A stretch of DNA of 64,000 nucleotides from Nannocystis bainbridge (GCF_028368995.1 NZ_JAQNDL010000003.1:384001-448000), one strand, 5' to 3'; shown: positions 5,672-61,725, numbered from the stretch's first letter. Numbers and translations are program-made. Notes: a model not told the origin generated them from the sequence alone.

Positions 5672-5751
5672 GGGCATGTCCTGCGGGGCATGCCCTCATG
5701 GGCATGTCCAAACGAGCATGTCGCATCGGACATGCTCCATCGAACATGTGA
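5672..5751. repeat. 14-bp-period RRRCATGYYY array (6 units)
   Basis: GGGCATGTCC 5672, GGGCATGCCC 5686, GGGCATGTCC 5700, GAGCATGTCG 5714, GGACATGCTC 5728, GAACATGTGA 5742. Confidence 0.92.
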
Positions 5752-5757
5752 CGATCT

Positions 5758-6888
5758 CTAGCTGCCCCAGCGGACGAACTGGGCCACCAGCTCGGCCAGG
5801 TCCGCCACCGAGGTCGGCGCCGGGTCACGCAGCGGCAGCAGCCACAGCGGCAAGCGCGGATAGGCGGCGGTCAGCGCTTGCCCGGCCGCCACCGACTGCT
5901 CGCCTTGCACGCGCAGCCCCGCGTACACCCCGAGCACCCGCTGCAACGTGTCCTCGAGGACAGCCGGCTCCACCTGCTCGGCCAGCGTCGCCTGCACCGC
6001 CTCGGTCGGCGGCGGCGGCGGGAACGGCGGCAGCACCCGATTGAGGACCACGCTGTCGACCCGCAGCCCGCGCTCGTGCAGCACGCGGAGGAAATCGAGC
6101 CCCTCGCGCACGCTCAGCGGCGACGCGGAAGTCGCCAGCACCACCCCGGTGTCGGGCGACGTGAGCAGCGTCGAGAAGTCGCCGGCGCGCTGCTGGAAGG
6201 CGGAGAGCACCCCGGAGAAGTCGCGGAGGAACGCCCCCAGCTCGGCCAGGAATTCGCCGCCCCCGATCGCCCCGAGGGCCTTCAGCACCACCCCGTTGCC
6301 GACCCCCAGCAGGCGCGCGCCGAGCTTGCCGCCGCCGGTGAGGATCCGCGTCGCCGGGTTGGTCACGACCTCGTGGATCCGCTCGGGCGCGCTGAGGAAA
6401 TCGATCGCGTTGGCCGTCGGCGGCGTGTCGAGCACGATCAGGTCGTAGCGGCGCTCCGCGTGCAGGATCTGCAGCTGGGCCATCGCCGCGTACTCGAGCG
6501 CCCCGCCGAGGTTCTCCGCGATCGCCCGGTAGATCGGGTTCTGCGTGATCTGGCGGGCCGCCGCCGGCGTCTCCGCGTAGGCGCGGACGATGCGGTCGAA
6601 CACCACGTCGGGCGCCAGCAGCAGCGCGTGCAGGCTGCCCTTGCCCTCGAGCGGCAGCGGCACCGGCAGCTCCTCGCCGGCGCGGGCCCGGTCCTGGCCG
6701 AGCGCCTGGGCCAGGCGGCGCGACGGATCGATCGTCACCACCAGCACGCGCTTGCCCTGGCGGGCCGCCCCCAGCGCCAGCGCCGCCGCGCAGGTCGTCT
6801 TGCCGACCCCGCCCGGGCCGACGCACAGCAGCACCCGGCGCGACGGCCCCGCGGACAGCGGGTCCCCTCCTGGTCGGGGTGAGGTCAT
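5758..6888 (-). CDS. ArsA/Get3-family P-loop ATPase
   Basis: Start MTSPRP; GPGGVGKTT, VVTIDPSRRLAQALG, DLIVLDTPPT. Confidence 0.88.
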   Translation of the reverse strand: MTSPRPGGDPLSAGPSRRVLLCVGPGGVGKTTCAAALALGAARQGKRVLVVTIDPSRRLAQALGQDRARAGEELPVPLPLEGKGSLHALLLAPDVVFDRIVRAYAETPAAARQITQNPIYRAIAENLGGALEYAAMAQLQILHAERRYDLIVLDTPPTANAIDFLSAPERIHEVVTNPATRILTGGGKLGARLLGVGNGVVLKALGAIGGGEFLAELGAFLRDFSGVLSAFQQRAGDFSTLLTSPDTGVVLATSASPLSVREGLDFLRVLHERGLRVDSVVLNRVLPPFPPPPPTEAVQATLAEQVEPAVLEDTLQRVLGVYAGLRVQGEQSVAAGQALTAAYPRLPLWLLPLRDPAPTSVADLAELVAQFVRWGS

Positions 6889-59876: not shown

Positions 59877-61631
59877 GGCCGAAGGCTTACCACGCCTCGC
59901 GCCGCGCTCGCGTGCCTCGCCCTCGCGACGCTCGCATGCTCTCGTCACACCGAGGTCGACAGCGGGGACGGCGCAGCGGGATCCACCCGGCCAGCCGCGG
60001 GCGAACGCACCGTCCACCTCGCCCTGGAGACCGCGTTCCACTCGCTGGATCCAGCCGACGCGGGCGACGCCGTCAGCCGTCGCTTGACCTCACAGATCTT
60101 CGACACGTTGCTCGACTGGGATCCACACGCCGATCCCCCGCGCCTCGTGCCCGAGCTGCTCGCCGACCTGCCCGAGATCAGCCCCGACGGTCTCACTTAT
60201 TCGTTGCGCTTGCGGGAGGGTCCGCGGTTCCAGCGCGACACCTGTCTCAAAGACCAGGCGCGTCCCGTCCGCGCCGGCGACGTCGCGGCCTCGCTGCTGC
60301 GCATCCGCCCGGACAAGCACGCCGCGTGGTCGCTGCTGGCCGGCCGGATCGCCGGCCTCGACGCCTGGCATCGCACGCCCGACGAGCGCGCGCCGATCAC
60401 CGCCGACGACGCGGCCGGCACCGTCACTCTCCGGCTCACGCGCCCGCAGCCGGAGTTCGCGGCGATCCTCGCCCACCCCGCGCTGGCGATCGTCCCGCCC
60501 GAGTGCGTCGATCACTACGACGGCTCGGCGCCCGAGCGCCCGCGGTTCGCCCGCCATCCGGTGGGCAGCGGGCCCTATCGCCTCGACCACGCCGCCAGCG
60601 AGTTCCCACGCACCGCCGTGCTCGTGGCCACCGACGCGCCGCGCCCGTACCCGCAGCCGCCCGGGCGGCCGCCGCTGCCGTGCACGCAGGCACCCGCGGC
60701 CGCGCGCGTGGTGCTGACCCACTTCCAGCACGGCGAGCCGGCCCTGCGCGCCTTCCAGGCCGGCGAGCTGGCGGCGATCGTGCCCGGCCAGGCGCAGTTC
60801 GCCGAGGTGGTGGCGCTCGGGCGACCTGTCCCCGGGGCCCTGCCCTCCGGGACAGGTCTCGAAAAATTCCCGGTCGCCGCGATCGACCTCCTCTACTTCA
60901 ACATGGCGAGCCCGGAGATCGGGCATCACCCCGACCCGGCCCGCGCGCGCGAGAACCTGGCCCTGCGCCGCGCGATCGCCCGCGCGTTCGATGTCCCGCG
61001 CTACCTCGAGGTCGTGCGCAACGACGCGTGGGCCGAGGCTAGCGCCAGCGTGCTGCCGCGCGAGGTCTCGCCGCGCGTCGATCTCGCGGACGCACCGGCC
61101 CGGCCCGACCTCGCCGGCGCGCTGCAGATCCTCGCCGACGCCGGCCTGTCCCACAGGACATTTGTCTTGAACTACTGGGGCGGCCCCAGCGAGCCCGAGC
61201 GGCAAGAGGCCGCGCTCCTGCGCGAGTTCCTGCGCCCGCTCGGCGTCGACCTCCGCTTCACCCCGCGCGACAATTTCCTGTTCGACCCGGGCCTGCGCGC
61301 CTCGGCCCACCTGTTCGGCCTCCGCTTCGACGCCGACTACCTCGACCCGAGCAATTTCTTGTCGTCGCTGACCTGCCAGGCCCCCGACAACCTGGCCGGC
61401 TTCTGCGACCCGGGCTACGACGCCGCCTACGCCGCCTTCGCCGCCCTGCCCCCCGGCCCGACCCGCGACGACGCAGCCCGCCGCCTCCAGGCGCTGCTCG
61501 GCGAGCAGATGCCCGTGCGACCGATCGATCAACCGAGCGCGTGGTACCTCCACCAGCGCTGGCTCGGCGGACTGGTCCGCCACCCGCTGGCCGGCCTGCG
61601 CATCGAGCTGCTGTGCCCCGACATGCCCTGA
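59829..61631 (+). CDS. ABC transporter family 5 solute-binding lipoprotein (start unresolved)
   Basis: TLAC lipobox, SLDPA, IFDTLL, PELLA..PEISPDGLTY..RLR, PVGSGPY, LRRAI, DY.DPSNFL. Confidence 0.8.
   Translation: MGEVRAPARDAAVGCHGRRLTTPRAALACLALATLACSRHTEVDSGDGAAGSTRPAAGERTVHLALETAFHSLDPADAGDAVSRRLTSQIFDTLLDWDPHADPPRLVPELLADLPEISPDGLTYSLRLREGPRFQRDTCLKDQARPVRAGDVAASLLRIRPDKHAAWSLLAGRIAGLDAWHRTPDERAPITADDAAGTVTLRLTRPQPEFAAILAHPALAIVPPECVDHYDGSAPERPRFARHPVGSGPYRLDHAASEFPRTAVLVATDAPRPYPQPPGRPPLPCTQAPAAARVVLTHFQHGEPALRAFQAGELAAIVPGQAQFAEVVALGRPVPGALPSGTGLEKFPVAAIDLLYFNMASPEIGHHPDPARARENLALRRAIARAFDVPRYLEVVRNDAWAEASASVLPREVSPRVDLADAPARPDLAGALQILADAGLSHRTFVLNYWGGPSEPERQEAALLREFLRPLGVDLRFTPRDNFLFDPGLRASAHLFGLRFDADYLDPSNFLSSLTCQAPDNLAGFCDPGYDAAYAAFAALPPGPTRDDAARRLQALLGEQMPVRPIDQPSAWYLHQRWLGGLVRHPLAGLRIELLCPDMP
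60822..60859. repeat. Intragenic degenerate 14-bp-period array (3 units)
   Basis: CGACCTGTCC 60822, GGCCCTGCCC 60836, GGACAGGTCT 60850. Confidence 0.45.
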
Positions 61632-61725
61632 AGGACATGCGCCGTCTCAATGCATCTTGAGACATGTCCATGAGAGCATGCCTCTTTGGACATAAACTTT
61701 CGCGCATGCTCTGGGAGACATGTTC
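61619..61725. repeat. 14-bp-period RRRCATGYYY array (8 slots, one 1-bp slip)
   Basis: CGACATGCCC 61619, GGACATGCGC 61633, eroded unit ~61646, AGACATGTCC 61660, GAGCATGCCT 61674, GGACATAAAC 61688, GCGCATGCTC 61702, AGACATGTTC 61716. Confidence 0.9.

What the first reader, a model, noticed from the sequence alone, without database searches (positions are those of the whole stretch)
5672..61725. Dispersed family of 14-bp-period arrays of a palindromic decamer RRRCATGYYY (candidate undescribed system)
Seen in sequence: about 17 intergenic arrays of 2-8 units (5672, 7478, 9532, 16002, 16087, 16282, 22790, 22953, 29110, 34605, 40877, 42857, 46072, 46178, 51846, 53270, 61619) plus about 6 eroded intragenic ones. 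Each unit is a 10-bp palindrome centred on CATG followed by a 4-bp spacer. Spacers and outer bases vary while the CATG core and the 14-bp phase are kept, which is unlike a slippage microsatellite, a CRISPR (spacers too short) or a classical REP (no GTAG foot, no RAYT gene here). Established knowledge: the decamer matches the p53-family half-site RRRCWWGYYY and contains the NspI site RCATGY; the p53 match may be coincidence. Inference: 14 bp is about 1.33 helical turns, so dimers bound to successive units would be ~120 degrees apart and repeat every 42 bp, suiting a cooperatively polymerising nucleoid or roadblock protein. Alternatives are an RNA element or a methylation-marked signal. I know of no description of this element but cannot search the literature.
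Basis: partly seen in the sequence, partly recalled or inferred. Interest (0 to 1): 0.88.

Follow-up and report, generated by a model that had tools for sequence, protein, structure and literature searches.

The report
Hyper-abundant 14-bp inverted repeat of Nannocystis
The genome carries thousands of copies of one short 14-base inverted repeat, often chained head to tail after gene ends, and evolution preserves it at the DNA level even inside genes, pointing to an unknown factor that reads it.

Summary
In the window, RRRCATGYYY occurs 42 times against 2.6 expected. Genome-wide, CATG-CATG distances peak at 14/28/42 bp: 3736/2073/1586 pairs against about 100 background.

The true unit is a 14-bp inverted repeat, TGYCC-N4-GGRCA. 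It occurs 2828 times at N4 against 23-93 at other spacings, and 1070 copies are solo. CATG is the junction of abutting units.

The genome is a Nannocystis. Unit counts are graded: 2271-2846 in core species, 170-1071 in divergent genus members, about 240 in two other genera, and background elsewhere.

Arrays sit mainly after stop codons and occupy 47% of convergent gaps. They also lie in frame inside genes such as Lhr. One unit in dnaE arose by point substitutions.

Across species, arms and phase persist while spacers turn over. I found no compensatory covariation, almost no strand asymmetry, no RAYT, no matching IS and no Rfam family.

Best reading: a DNA-level signal read by an unidentified dimeric factor. 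It behaves like HIP1 or uptake sequences more than REP. The function is unproven.

The parts
5672..5751 (.). Array of 6 units filling the gap between convergent genes (ThiF-family gene ending at 5659; ArsA-like ATPase gene ending at 5758).
   Evidence: An orthologous array is present in G005, G007, G001 and G010.
7478..7501 (.). Degenerate 2-unit element with one exact CATG and TGTCC half-sites at 14-bp spacing, lying between two ArsA-like ATPase genes.
   Evidence: weight matrix; identical in 4 of 5 species; G010 differs at a few bases.
9532..9611 (.). Array of 5 exact CATG units plus 1 degenerate unit, 10 bp downstream of the stop of the TetR gene (9622-10230, minus strand).
16002..16067 (.). 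Array of 5 units starting 9 nt after the stop of the RlmI-like methyltransferase gene. It is the first of three arrays in a convergent gap.
   Evidence: All five species have 5 of 5 CATG at the same offset from the stop. Sister genera have a 10-50 bp gap with no array.
16101..16138 (.). Array of 3 units.
16282..16319 (.). Array of 3 units, next to the stop of the HtrA-like protease gene (16335-17402, minus strand).
20641..20664 (.). 2-unit element with an exact inverted-repeat unit at 20646-20659, inside ORF 20353-21708 in a low-complexity region.
   Evidence: exact unit also in G001; not exact in G005, G007, G010.
22790..22855 (.). Array of 5 CATG units after the stop of a VWA-domain gene, in a tandem gap.
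22967..23018 (.). Array of 4 units in the same gap.
29110..29147 (.). Array of 3 units.
34619..34642 (.). Doublet abutting the stop of the minus-strand gene 34645-36012.
   Evidence: The block is duplicated in G005 and G007.
40877..40914 (.). Array of 3 units after the peptide deformylase gene.
   Evidence: Kept in five of five species.
42857..42880 (.). Doublet.
46072..46095 (.). Doublet.
46178..46201 (.). Doublet.
51846..51897 (.). Array of 4 units after the sigma-54 activator gene (49260-51782).
53270..53349 (.). Array of 6 units in the convergent gap between the LOG-family gene and the Ser/Thr kinase gene.
61619..61725 (.). Two arrays (2 and 4 units) before the stop of the minus-strand gene 61787-64336.
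5949..5962 (.). Solo inverted-repeat unit inside the ArsA-like ATPase gene.
   Evidence: Present in G007, G001, G010 and G009, with one mismatch in G005, and absent in G013. The flanking peptide is only 50% identical in G009.
58977..58990 (.). Solo inverted-repeat unit inside dnaE (56232-60041, minus strand), between the PHP and polymerase-core domains.
   Evidence: There is no indel. The unit is present in 5 of 5 core species and absent in G009, G013, G011, G019 and G024, so it arose by substitutions.
45052..45065 (.). Solo inverted-repeat unit in the 5' part of ORF 44005-45306.
   Evidence: Arms are kept and the spacer differs in G007 and G001.
17312..17325 (.). Solo inverted-repeat unit in the 5' part of the HtrA-like gene.
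   Evidence: Exact in G001 and G010, degenerate in G005 and G007.

Best explanation
The repeat is a lineage-specific DNA-level signal. Its unit is the 14-bp inverted repeat TGYCC-N4-GGRCA.

I infer that a still unidentified sequence-specific factor reads it on double-stranded DNA. The factor is most likely a dimer with one subunit per 5-bp arm, and abutting units probably give cooperative binding. This is not shown.

Units multiply locally by duplication of 14-bp units and larger blocks. They accumulate where extra DNA is tolerated: just after stop codons, in convergent gaps, and in surface loops or linkers of proteins.

Units are also created by point substitution inside conserved genes. A genome-wide directional force then holds them, either selection for binding or a molecular drive such as biased uptake or conversion.

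The family behaves like HIP1 of cyanobacteria or uptake signal sequences, with REP/BIME-like placement.
For: **Shown.**
1. Spacing is exact. The inverted repeat occurs 2828 times at N4 against 23-93 at N0-N12. The GGRCA|TGYCC junction occurs 1771 times at gap 0 against 27-78 at gaps 1-12. 1070 units are solo.
2. Array ends are inner half-sites.
3. Position is conserved while sequence turns over. In a collinear 64-kb region of five species, arrays sit in the same gaps. In the five anchored blocks, pairwise identity is 0.88 for the core, 0.62 for the arms and 0.47 for the spacers.
4. The constraint does not depend on coding status.
   - The 4-unit array in Lhr is a 22-30 codon in-frame insertion, absent in G013, G019 and G009. 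It is kept in four species with CATG and phase conserved and a variable peptide.
   - The dnaE unit arose by substitutions without an indel. It is fixed in 5 of 5 core species and absent in 5 of 5 outgroups.
   - The ArsA-like unit is conserved to G009 although the surrounding peptide is 50% identical.
5. The repeat is enriched in confident coding cores: 545 strong decamers against 176 +/- 16 in codon shuffles, and 218 in-phase doublets against 1.
6. There is no sign of pairing. Uncompensated double variants number 35 against 16 compensated. Loop tetranucleotides show no sense-strand bias, TTCG 22 against CGAA 29. Core variants are strand-symmetric.
7. It is not an active transposon.
   - Arrays share no homology beyond the motif.
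   - The genome is IS-poor, and the ends of the 10 multi-copy repeat regions examined (of 26 found) lack the motif.
   - Y1 transposase was found in 0 of 11 genus genomes.
8. The phyletic distribution is graded.

Against: - No reader protein was identified, and no binding, methylation or expression data exist for these sites.
- Placement is what a 3'-end RNA element would show: 47% of convergent gaps, 16-19% of tandem gaps and 9.8% of divergent gaps.
- The arrays can fold into strong hairpins: -47 kcal/mol, z = -3.9.
- The variable arm pair shows a modest excess of complementary C/G combinations, 146 against 86 expected.
- There is a weak sense-strand G/T excess at the inner arm position: 1336 against 1187, p = 0.003, and 72 against 48, p = 0.035. 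These leave room for a single-strand or RNA component.
- Selection on thousands of individually weak sites is hard to sustain, which favours a drive over a conventional binding-site function.
- My gene calls are crude (GC3-based ORFs covering about 76% of the genome, with over-extended starts). Intragenic counts are therefore approximate, and only the Pfam-checked cases are firm.
Confidence: 0.4

Rival explanations
1. Molecular drive through DNA uptake or recombination bias, as for USS/DUS. The unit would be the preferred ligand of a lineage-specific DNA-uptake or recombination component. Motif-bearing alleles replace motif-free ones, so units accumulate wherever they are tolerated. This is a special case of a DNA-level reader, with a specific function.
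For: - Density is about one weight-matrix site per kb: 16,038 sites at threshold 8 against 3,781 in the control.
- The distribution is lineage-specific and graded.
- Units are present and conserved in ORFs, and in dnaE one was created by substitutions that change amino acids.
- Units are spread over all contigs with no deserts.
- The strongest accumulation is at gene ends.
Against: - There is no evidence here that Nannocystis is transformable or has a specificity factor.
- As I recall (not from a call), known uptake sequences are asymmetric and not chained in phase.
- The literature search for uptake sequences in myxobacteria returned nothing relevant (listing only).
Confidence: 0.2
2. Decaying selfish mobile DNA (REP, MITE or RPE-like) with no host role. 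The apparent conservation would reflect a recent burst and an unidentified mobilising enzyme.
For: - Arrays are insertions relative to outgroups: the RlmI-like/HtrA gap is 10-50 bp in four sister genera, and the Lhr site is empty in G009, G013 and G019.
- Block duplications differ between species.
- In G009 some 3-unit arrays are fused to a roughly 75-bp hairpin repeat.
- In-frame insertion in genes recalls Rickettsia palindromic elements (recalled; search listing only).
Against: - Core and arms persist while spacers approach saturation. Dead copies would lose both at the same rate.
- No array is related to another beyond the motif. The best-match distribution equals that of the shuffled-unit control, except for 22 of 869 windows.
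- No Y1 transposase was found in 11 of 11 genus genomes, and the ends of the 10 multi-copy repeat regions examined (of 26 found) lack the motif.
- A unit arose by substitution in dnaE.
- 14-bp solo units in ORFs cannot be simple insertions.
Confidence: 0.15
3. RNA-level element. Neighbouring units would pair (10-bp stem, 4-nt loop) to give bidirectional terminators or 3'-end stabilisers, as proposed for REP.
For: - Arrays start a median of 28 nt after stops.
- 1288 of 6336 ORFs have an array within 100 bp downstream.
- 47% of convergent gaps are occupied.
- The predicted fold is strong.
- There is a weak G/T excess on the sense strand.
Against: - There is no compensatory covariation in the cores and little in the arms.
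- C.A-type combinations are nearly as common as G.U-type ones.
- Loop sequences show no strand bias.
- Spacing is exact, with no tolerance for loops of 3 or 5 nt.
- Arrays lie in frame inside intact genes.
- 1070 solo units have only 5-bp arms.
- No T-run follows the arrays.
- Arrays are rarer after tRNA genes, 5 of 102.
- No Rfam family matched.
Confidence: 0.12
4. Methylation-linked palindrome. The CATG or RCATGY junctions would be targets of an orphan methyltransferase, and the arrays would act as methylation-marked signals, as proposed for HIP1.
For: - The genome has one D12-class adenine methylase gene and about ten N6/N4 methylase matches.
- HIP1 is a precedent for a hyper-abundant palindrome tied to orphan methylases (abstract starts only).
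- CATG is not avoided in coding DNA: observed/expected is 1.18.
Against: - 1070 units have no CATG at all, so CATG is a by-product of abutting units.
- The D12 methylase is present in 22 of 24 family genomes, including genera without the repeat.
- No C5 methylase was found.
- The specificity of any methylase here is unknown.
Confidence: 0.08

Closest known systems
HIP1 (highly iterated palindrome GCGATCGC) of cyanobacteria
   Same: It is a short palindromic motif, hyper-abundant and lineage-wide. It is conserved both within and between ORFs, and no RNA, peptide or gene-regulatory role was found, so its authors proposed a nucleoid-structure role (abstract of PMC5861425). Here the unit is 30-100 times over-represented against other spacings. 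It is conserved in the ORFs and gaps examined.
   Different: HIP1 is a contiguous 8-mer that is not chained in phase. It spans a phylum and is tied to orphan methylases (abstract starts). The present unit is a split 5-4-5 inverted repeat with a free spacer. It forms head-to-tail arrays, concentrates at gene 3' ends, and is confined to one genus plus weak traces in two others. No methylase was linked to it.
REP/BIME elements with RAYT transposases (Enterobacteria, Pseudomonas)
   Same: Short palindromic extragenic repeats present in hundreds to thousands of copies, clustered, biased to 3' ends and convergent gaps, and species- or genus-specific. These REP properties are recalled; the matching properties here come.
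   Different: There is no GTAG foot (logos). No Y1/RAYT gene was found in 11 of 11 genus genomes. Here the unit is 14 bp in a rigid phase, the interior is free, arrays have no consensus beyond the arms, and copies lie inside ORFs.
Uptake signal sequences (USS of Pasteurellaceae, DUS of Neisseriaceae)
   Same: About one copy per kb, lineage-specific, found in ORFs and between genes, over-represented at gene ends, and maintained by a drive rather than by function at each locus. These USS/DUS properties are recalled.
   Different: As I recall (not from a call), USS and DUS are asymmetric words that are not tandemly phased. Uptake bias is untested here, and no report was found for myxobacteria.
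Rickettsia palindromic elements (RPE)
   Same: Palindromic repeats inserted in frame into protein-coding genes without destroying them (recalled; search listing only). Compare the Lhr, MFS and kinase-linker arrays.
   Different: As recalled, RPEs are about 100-150 bp single elements with a full consensus. Here arrays are built from 14-bp units with free spacers, and single units can arise by substitution.
Operator arrays of cooperative dimeric repressors or centromere binders (MetJ metboxes, omega heptads, ParR iterons)
   Same: Short symmetric or repeated boxes that abut at a fixed register for cooperative binding (recalled).
   Different: As recalled (not from a call), those are a few sites per genome with a defined regulatory target. 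Here there are thousands of sites with no shared neighbouring gene function.

Membership tests
REP/BIME-RAYT | A Y1 (RAYT, IS200-like) transposase gene in the genome. | tested here: not met
   PF01797 gave 0 matches in G000 and in 0 of 11 genus genomes, against 17 of 30 other relatives. The control genomes rang.
REP/BIME-RAYT | An imperfect palindrome of 20-40 nt with a conserved GTAG at its foot (definition recalled). | tested here: not met
   The unit logo is nnGGRCATGYCCnn, or TGYCC-N4-GGRCA, with no GTAG.
REP/BIME-RAYT | Extragenic placement, biased to 3' ends and convergent gaps. | tested here: met
   Context of 830 arrays: 451 convergent, 340 tandem, 39 divergent. Occupancy of gaps: 47%, 16-19% and 9.8%. 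However, copies also lie inside ORFs.
MITE | Copies share a full-length consensus with terminal inverted repeats related to an autonomous IS. | tested here: not met
   Arrays share no similarity beyond the motif. Only 26 regions of at least 500 bp have 3 or more copies, and the ends of the 10 examined lack the motif.
CRISPR array | Repeats of roughly 21-48 bp separated by unique spacers of roughly 26-72 bp (definition recalled). | tested here: not met
   The period is 14 bp and the spacer 4 bp.
Slippage microsatellite/minisatellite | Neighbouring units are near-identical. | tested here: not met
   Adjacent units share 4.47 of 10 variable positions, random units 4.22. Unit number does vary between species.
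Intrinsic terminator | A stem-loop followed by a U-run at transcript ends, and not tolerated inside genes. | tested here: not met
   There is no T-run beyond the half-site. In-frame arrays lie in Lhr, an MFS transporter and kinase genes. Transcript ends could not be tested because no usable RNA runs were found.
HIP1-like hyper-abundant palindrome | Strong over-representation genome-wide, in ORFs and between them. | tested here: met
   2828 copies against 21 in the reversed control. In coding cores, 545 against 176 in codon shuffles.
HIP1-like hyper-abundant palindrome | Sites conserved between species within and between ORFs. | tested here: met
   This rests on one 64-kb region and a few genes, not the whole genome.
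HIP1-like hyper-abundant palindrome | A cognate orphan methyltransferase acting on the motif. | tested here: inconclusive
   The D12 methylase does not track the repeat, no C5 methylase was found, and specificities are unknown.
Uptake signal sequence | Preferential uptake or recombination of motif-bearing DNA. | not testable with these tools
   This needs transformation assays.
p53-family response element | A p53-type DNA-binding domain encoded by the organism. | tested here: inconclusive
   PF00870 gave 0 matches in G000, but the control genomes were silent too. The decamer's only literature hits are p53 papers.
Rfam RNA family | A match at or above a family's gathering score. | tested here: not met
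   There were 0 gathering-score matches in the window, and only sub-threshold chance hits on arrays.

The most novel reading that the evidence does not exclude
Nannocystis and its nearest relatives may have a previously unknown chromosomal signalling system. In this reading a dimeric protein recognises TGYCC-N4-GGRCA and polymerises along head-to-tail arrays. The arrays mark the ends of about a fifth of all genes and half of all convergent gene pairs, for example as supercoil or domain boundaries or as a self-DNA mark. The need for these sites would be strong enough to write units into essential genes such as dnaE. The graded phyletic distribution would then trace the birth and expansion of the system.
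Probability: 0.25. Interest if true: 0.85.

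Novelty: new variant of a known kind. Interest (0 to 1): 0.62.

Why it matters
Hyper-abundant short DNA words (HIP1, USS/DUS, REP, Chi) are few, and each has taught something about chromosome biology. For HIP1 the function is still debated after decades (abstract).

This family adds a case with unusually clean anatomy. It has a split inverted repeat with exact spacing, solo copies and phased chains. Its evolutionary gradient runs from about 240 copies to about 2800 copies among cultured, sequenced species such as N. exedens DSM 71, N. pusilla and N. punicea. That gradient makes the partner gene findable by phylogenetic profiling and the binding testable by pull-down.

There are also practical consequences. 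The repeat explains why intergenic DNA of Nannocystis fails to align between species. It inserts peptides into proteins. It may also affect genetic manipulation, for instance if it acts in DNA uptake or self-recognition.

Tried and rejected
**RNA evidence.** The look-up of sequencing runs gave only small-share metagenome contigs. Read laying on 4000-23999 with X7, X9, X1 and X5 showed contigs of related organisms that align to coding flanks and break at arrays. No listed RNA contig bridged an array, and contigs cannot show transcript ends. This is uninformative either way.

**RAYT.** Rejected.

**MITE of an extant IS.** Rejected.

**Recent copy-paste.** Rejected for G000.

**C5 methylase or Vsr-type biased repair.** No PF00145 was found.

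**D12 methylase as partner.** It does not track the repeat. It has no PDB relative and only a weak Dam-family match in NCBIfam.

**p53 domain.** None found, but the control was silent.

**Rfam.** Nothing reached gathering score.

**Viral contigs.** There were 16 hits. The 3 of 16 that I read are ordinary perfect 14-bp tandem repeats. The other 13 were not read.

**Genome-contig scan.** Hits outside Nannocystis were single and I did not inspect them.

**Parity of unit number** (expected if hairpin pairs mattered). No clear even-number preference: sizes 2/3/4/5/6 number 1172/328/317/210/92.

**UUCG-type loops.** TTCG and CGAA are the commonest solo spacers (76 and 59 of 1070), but they show no sense-strand bias.

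**Chromosomal deserts.** None found.

**Literature.** Searches found no description. Only open-access full text and bioRxiv were searched, and supplements were closed, so repeat tables in genome papers could have been missed.
- I read passages only of PMC3372372, PMC3696898 and PMC5658511.
- I read the abstract and outline of PMC5861425.

**Partner gene.** I could not identify one.

Full report
**1.

RRRCATGYYY occurs 42 times in the window, against 2.56 expected and a maximum of 9 in 100 shuffles. Tandem Repeats Finder picks up several of the arrays as weak period-14 repeats.

The window lies in an 11.05-Mb, 71.5% G+C genome of 5 contigs. Genome-wide, pairs of CATG are found at these distances:

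| Distance (bp) | 14 | 28 | 42 | 56 | 70 | 13 | 15 | 16 |
|---|---|---|---|---|---|---|---|---|
| Pairs | 3736 | 2073 | 1586 | 751 | 383 | 72 | 262 | 79 |

Chaining in-phase CATGs gives 2338 arrays, 18 of them in the window. The one at 7478 is an array only by weight matrix. A weight-matrix scan finds 2143 arrays of at least 2 units, against one in a reversed-sequence control. Sizes 2/3/4/5/6/7+ number 1172/328/317/210/92/24.

**2. Anatomy: the unit is a 14-bp inverted repeat**

The logo of units is nnGGRCATGYCCnn. A unit flanked by in-phase CATGs on both sides has CATG in 1670 of 2073 cases. Each core base is kept at 92-94%, and arm positions at 50-74%.

Array ends are not whole decamers. Upstream of the first unit only TG.CC is kept, and downstream of the last only GG.CA. 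Isolated strong decamers are flanked by the same half-sites.

Counting the two possible parses settles the matter:
- TGYCC-Nk-GGRCA occurs 2828 times at k = 4 and 23-93 times at every other k from 0 to 12.
- GGRCA-Nk-TGYCC occurs 1771 times at k = 0 and 27-78 times at k = 1 to 12.
- 1070 of the 2828 inverted-repeat units have no CATG on either side.

So the family is a 5-4-5 inverted repeat that occurs alone or head to tail, and CATG is the junction of abutting units.

Spacers are very diverse and strand-symmetric. Neighbouring units are hardly more alike than random ones, 4.47 against 4.22 of 10 positions.

**3. Where the repeat sits**

I used my own crude gene calls: ORFs with high GC3, covering about 76% of the genome, with over-extended starts.
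- Of 988 arrays with at least 3 CATG, 741 are intergenic, 90 are at ORF edges and 157 are inside ORF calls.
- Of the 830 with two flanking genes, 451 lie between convergent genes, 340 between tandem genes and 39 between divergent genes. All gaps number 1235, 3323 and 1094 respectively.
- 47% of convergent gaps hold an array, against 16-19% of tandem and 9.8% of divergent gaps.
- 1288 of 6336 ORFs have an array within 100 bp after the stop, but only 5 of 102 predicted tRNA genes do.
- Arrays are spread over all contigs, at 10-64 per 200 kb.
- Flanking genes in the window have unrelated functions: ThiF, ArsA-like ATPases, TetR, an RlmI-like methyltransferase, HtrA, VWA proteins, LOG, a kinase, deformylase and a sigma-54 activator.

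**4. Who has it**

Record titles of matching genomes name the genus Nannocystis: N. exedens DSM 71, N. pusilla Na p29, N. punicea FL3, N. radixulma and N. sp. RBIL2.

| Genomes | Three in-phase CATGs | Inverted-repeat unit (reversed control) |
|---|---|---|
| G000 | 1670 | 2828 (21) |
| Five other large genus genomes | 1005-1162 | 2271-2846 (22-34) |
| Five divergent or fragmentary genus members | 2-62 | 170-1071 (8-32) |
| G011 | 0 | 246 (47) |
| G013 | 4 | 233 (18) |
| Remaining 28 relatives (12 other family genera and 16 same-class genomes) | 0-3 | 4-73 (6-47) |

The first column is and the second. In 400 further genomes of the phylum the three-CATG pattern occurs at most 12 times, and those hits are ordinary tandem repeats. 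The distribution is therefore graded, not all-or-none.

G009 and G006 carry the same decamer arrays, at a tenth to a twentieth of the number.

**5. Evolution**

A 64-kb collinear region was fetched from four other species. It is about 90% identical in coding DNA, and BLAST alignments break at the arrays.
- Arrays occupy the same gaps in four to five species.
- They keep CATG and phase, change unit number in multiples of 14 bp or by block duplication, and have otherwise unalignable surroundings.
- In five anchor-defined ungapped blocks, pairwise identity is 0.88 for the core (lowered by one 1-bp indel), 0.62 for the arms and 0.47 for the spacers. Unrelated units give about 0.27.
- In four sister genera the same convergent pair (RlmI-like and HtrA) is separated by only 10-50 bp with no array. 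The arrays are therefore additions.
- No array resembles another beyond the motif. The best-match distribution equals that of the shuffled-unit control, except for 22 of 869 windows, which I take to lie in duplicated segments.
- The genome has only 26 regions of at least 500 bp with 3 or more copies, rRNA operons included, and the ends of the 10 examined lack the motif.
- Y1 transposase is missing from 11 of 11 genus genomes and present in 17 of 30 other relatives.

**6. Copies inside genes**

In 2282 confident coding cores, strong decamers number 545 against 176 +/- 16 in codon shuffles. In-phase doublets number 218 against 1.

Many 'deep' arrays in my ORF calls are probably artefacts of fused ORFs. 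Pfam nevertheless places several between domains of one protein:
- Lhr helicase, between DEAD and Helicase_C;
- an MFS transporter, in the central loop;
- two Ser/Thr kinases, in linkers;
- AcrB, where the units are degenerate;
- an SCFA transporter.

The Lhr array is a 22-30-codon in-frame insertion. It is present in G000, G001, G005 and G010 with CATG and phase kept and a variable peptide. It is absent from G009, G013 and G019.

In dnaE (Pfam) the unit at 58977-58990 lies in a stretch with no indel. Five of five core species have the unit, while G009, G013, G011, G019 and G024 have a different, unit-free sequence. It therefore arose by several substitutions, including amino-acid changes.

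The unit at 5949 in the ArsA-like gene is shared with G009, although the surrounding peptide is only 50% identical.

**7. DNA or RNA?**

The arrays can fold strongly as RNA: -47 kcal/mol, z = -3.9. However:
- Cores show no compensatory change. CAGG/CAGG and CCTG/CCTG pairs number 35, against 16 compensated pairs.
- Arm covariation is slight.
- Core variants and loop words are strand-symmetric in oriented arrays. TTCG occurs 22 times and CGAA 29.
- Only the inner arm position shows a weak sense-strand G/T excess: 1336 against 1187, and 72 against 48.
- Spacing allows no 13- or 15-bp variants.
- Arrays sit in frame in intact genes.

I conclude, by inference, that the constraint acts on double-stranded DNA sequence and spacing. 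A sequence-specific dimeric reader is the most economical explanation.

**8. What maintains it?**

Neither a dead mobile element nor a terminator explains three observations together: preservation of arms and spacing across species, inside and outside ORFs; the birth of a unit by substitution in dnaE; and the graded distribution. There are two options: selection for binding by a host factor, or a molecular drive. I could not identify the factor.
- The single D12-class methylase is conserved family-wide.
- No C5 methylase was found.
- No P53 domain was found, but the control was silent.

**9. Comparison and novelty**

The closest behaviour is that of HIP1, which is conserved within and between ORFs and has a proposed nucleoid role (abstract). 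Uptake sequences are the next closest (recalled). Placement resembles REP/BIME, but two defining REP features fail. In-frame insertion recalls RPEs (recalled; listing only).

My searches found no description of this family. I rate it a new variant of a known kind, namely hyper-abundant lineage-specific DNA words. What is unusual is the split-palindrome unit and the phased chains.

**10. Limits**
- The gene calls are crude.
- Cross-species evidence comes from one 64-kb region and a handful of genes.
- There are no expression, methylation or binding data.
- Scripts and small genome searches were exhausted before a proteome-wide profile could be run.

Noticed in passing
L160-L168 (G009), e.g. L165 from about position 125 to 235: In the divergent genus member G009, at least 9 of the 20 array loci I fetched carry a conserved repeat of about 75 bp with its own internal hairpin (GGTGCGGTC...GGACCGCACC). 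It is fused to a 3-unit CATG array and occurs in both orientations. BLAST finds nothing of it in G000 beyond the array part.
   Followed up: partly
window 7440-7540: A 101-bp stretch between two ArsA-like ATPase genes is identical in 4 of 5 Nannocystis species, and G010 differs at a few bases. It contains TGTCC half-sites at 14-bp spacing but only one CATG. It is much better conserved than any other array, spacers included, so it may overlap coding or regulatory sequence.
   Followed up: partly
window 24196-24368: A 54-bp tandem repeat of 3.1 copies with 92% matches lies between genes 23038-24213 and 24383-25222. It is unrelated to the CATG family.
   Followed up: no
window 24807-25084: A long AAG/GAG-rich repeat (periods 15, 30 and 42) lies inside the TPR-protein gene 24383-25222. 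It is presumably a Lys/Glu-rich low-complexity tail.
   Followed up: no
window 17481-17772 and 20397-20634: GC-rich tandem repeats with periods of 21/42 bp and 24/36/66 bp lie inside ORFs. They are probably low-complexity linkers.
   Followed up: no
G000 whole genome (coding cores): CTAG is strongly under-represented: 565 observed against 5346 expected (ratio 0.11). CATG (1.18) and GATC (1.08) are not.
   Followed up: no
G000:C1:3591256-3592302 (L123, L130): The single D12-class adenine methyltransferase gene lies directly downstream of a YbgF/CpoB-like TPR gene. It has orthologs at 58-71% identity in 22 of 24 genomes of the family, so it looks like an orphan, vertically inherited methylase of unknown specificity.
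   Followed up: partly
G007 orthologue of window 22780-23030; G001 and G007 orthologues of window 40860-40930: In G007 a block of about 75-80 bp carrying 3 units is tandemly repeated 3-4 times. In G001 and G007 an unrelated tandem repeat of about 47-50 bp has expanded upstream of the 40877 array. Intergenic DNA in this genus is very plastic.
   Followed up: no
G000 whole genome: The genome is very poor in IS-like repeats. Only 26 regions of at least 500 bp occur in 3 or more copies, and these include the three rRNA operons and contig-end overlaps.
   Followed up: partly
G034 (same class, another family): TGYCC-N4-GGRCA occurs 69 times against 15 in the control. This is a mild excess outside the family that I did not inspect.
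   Followed up: no
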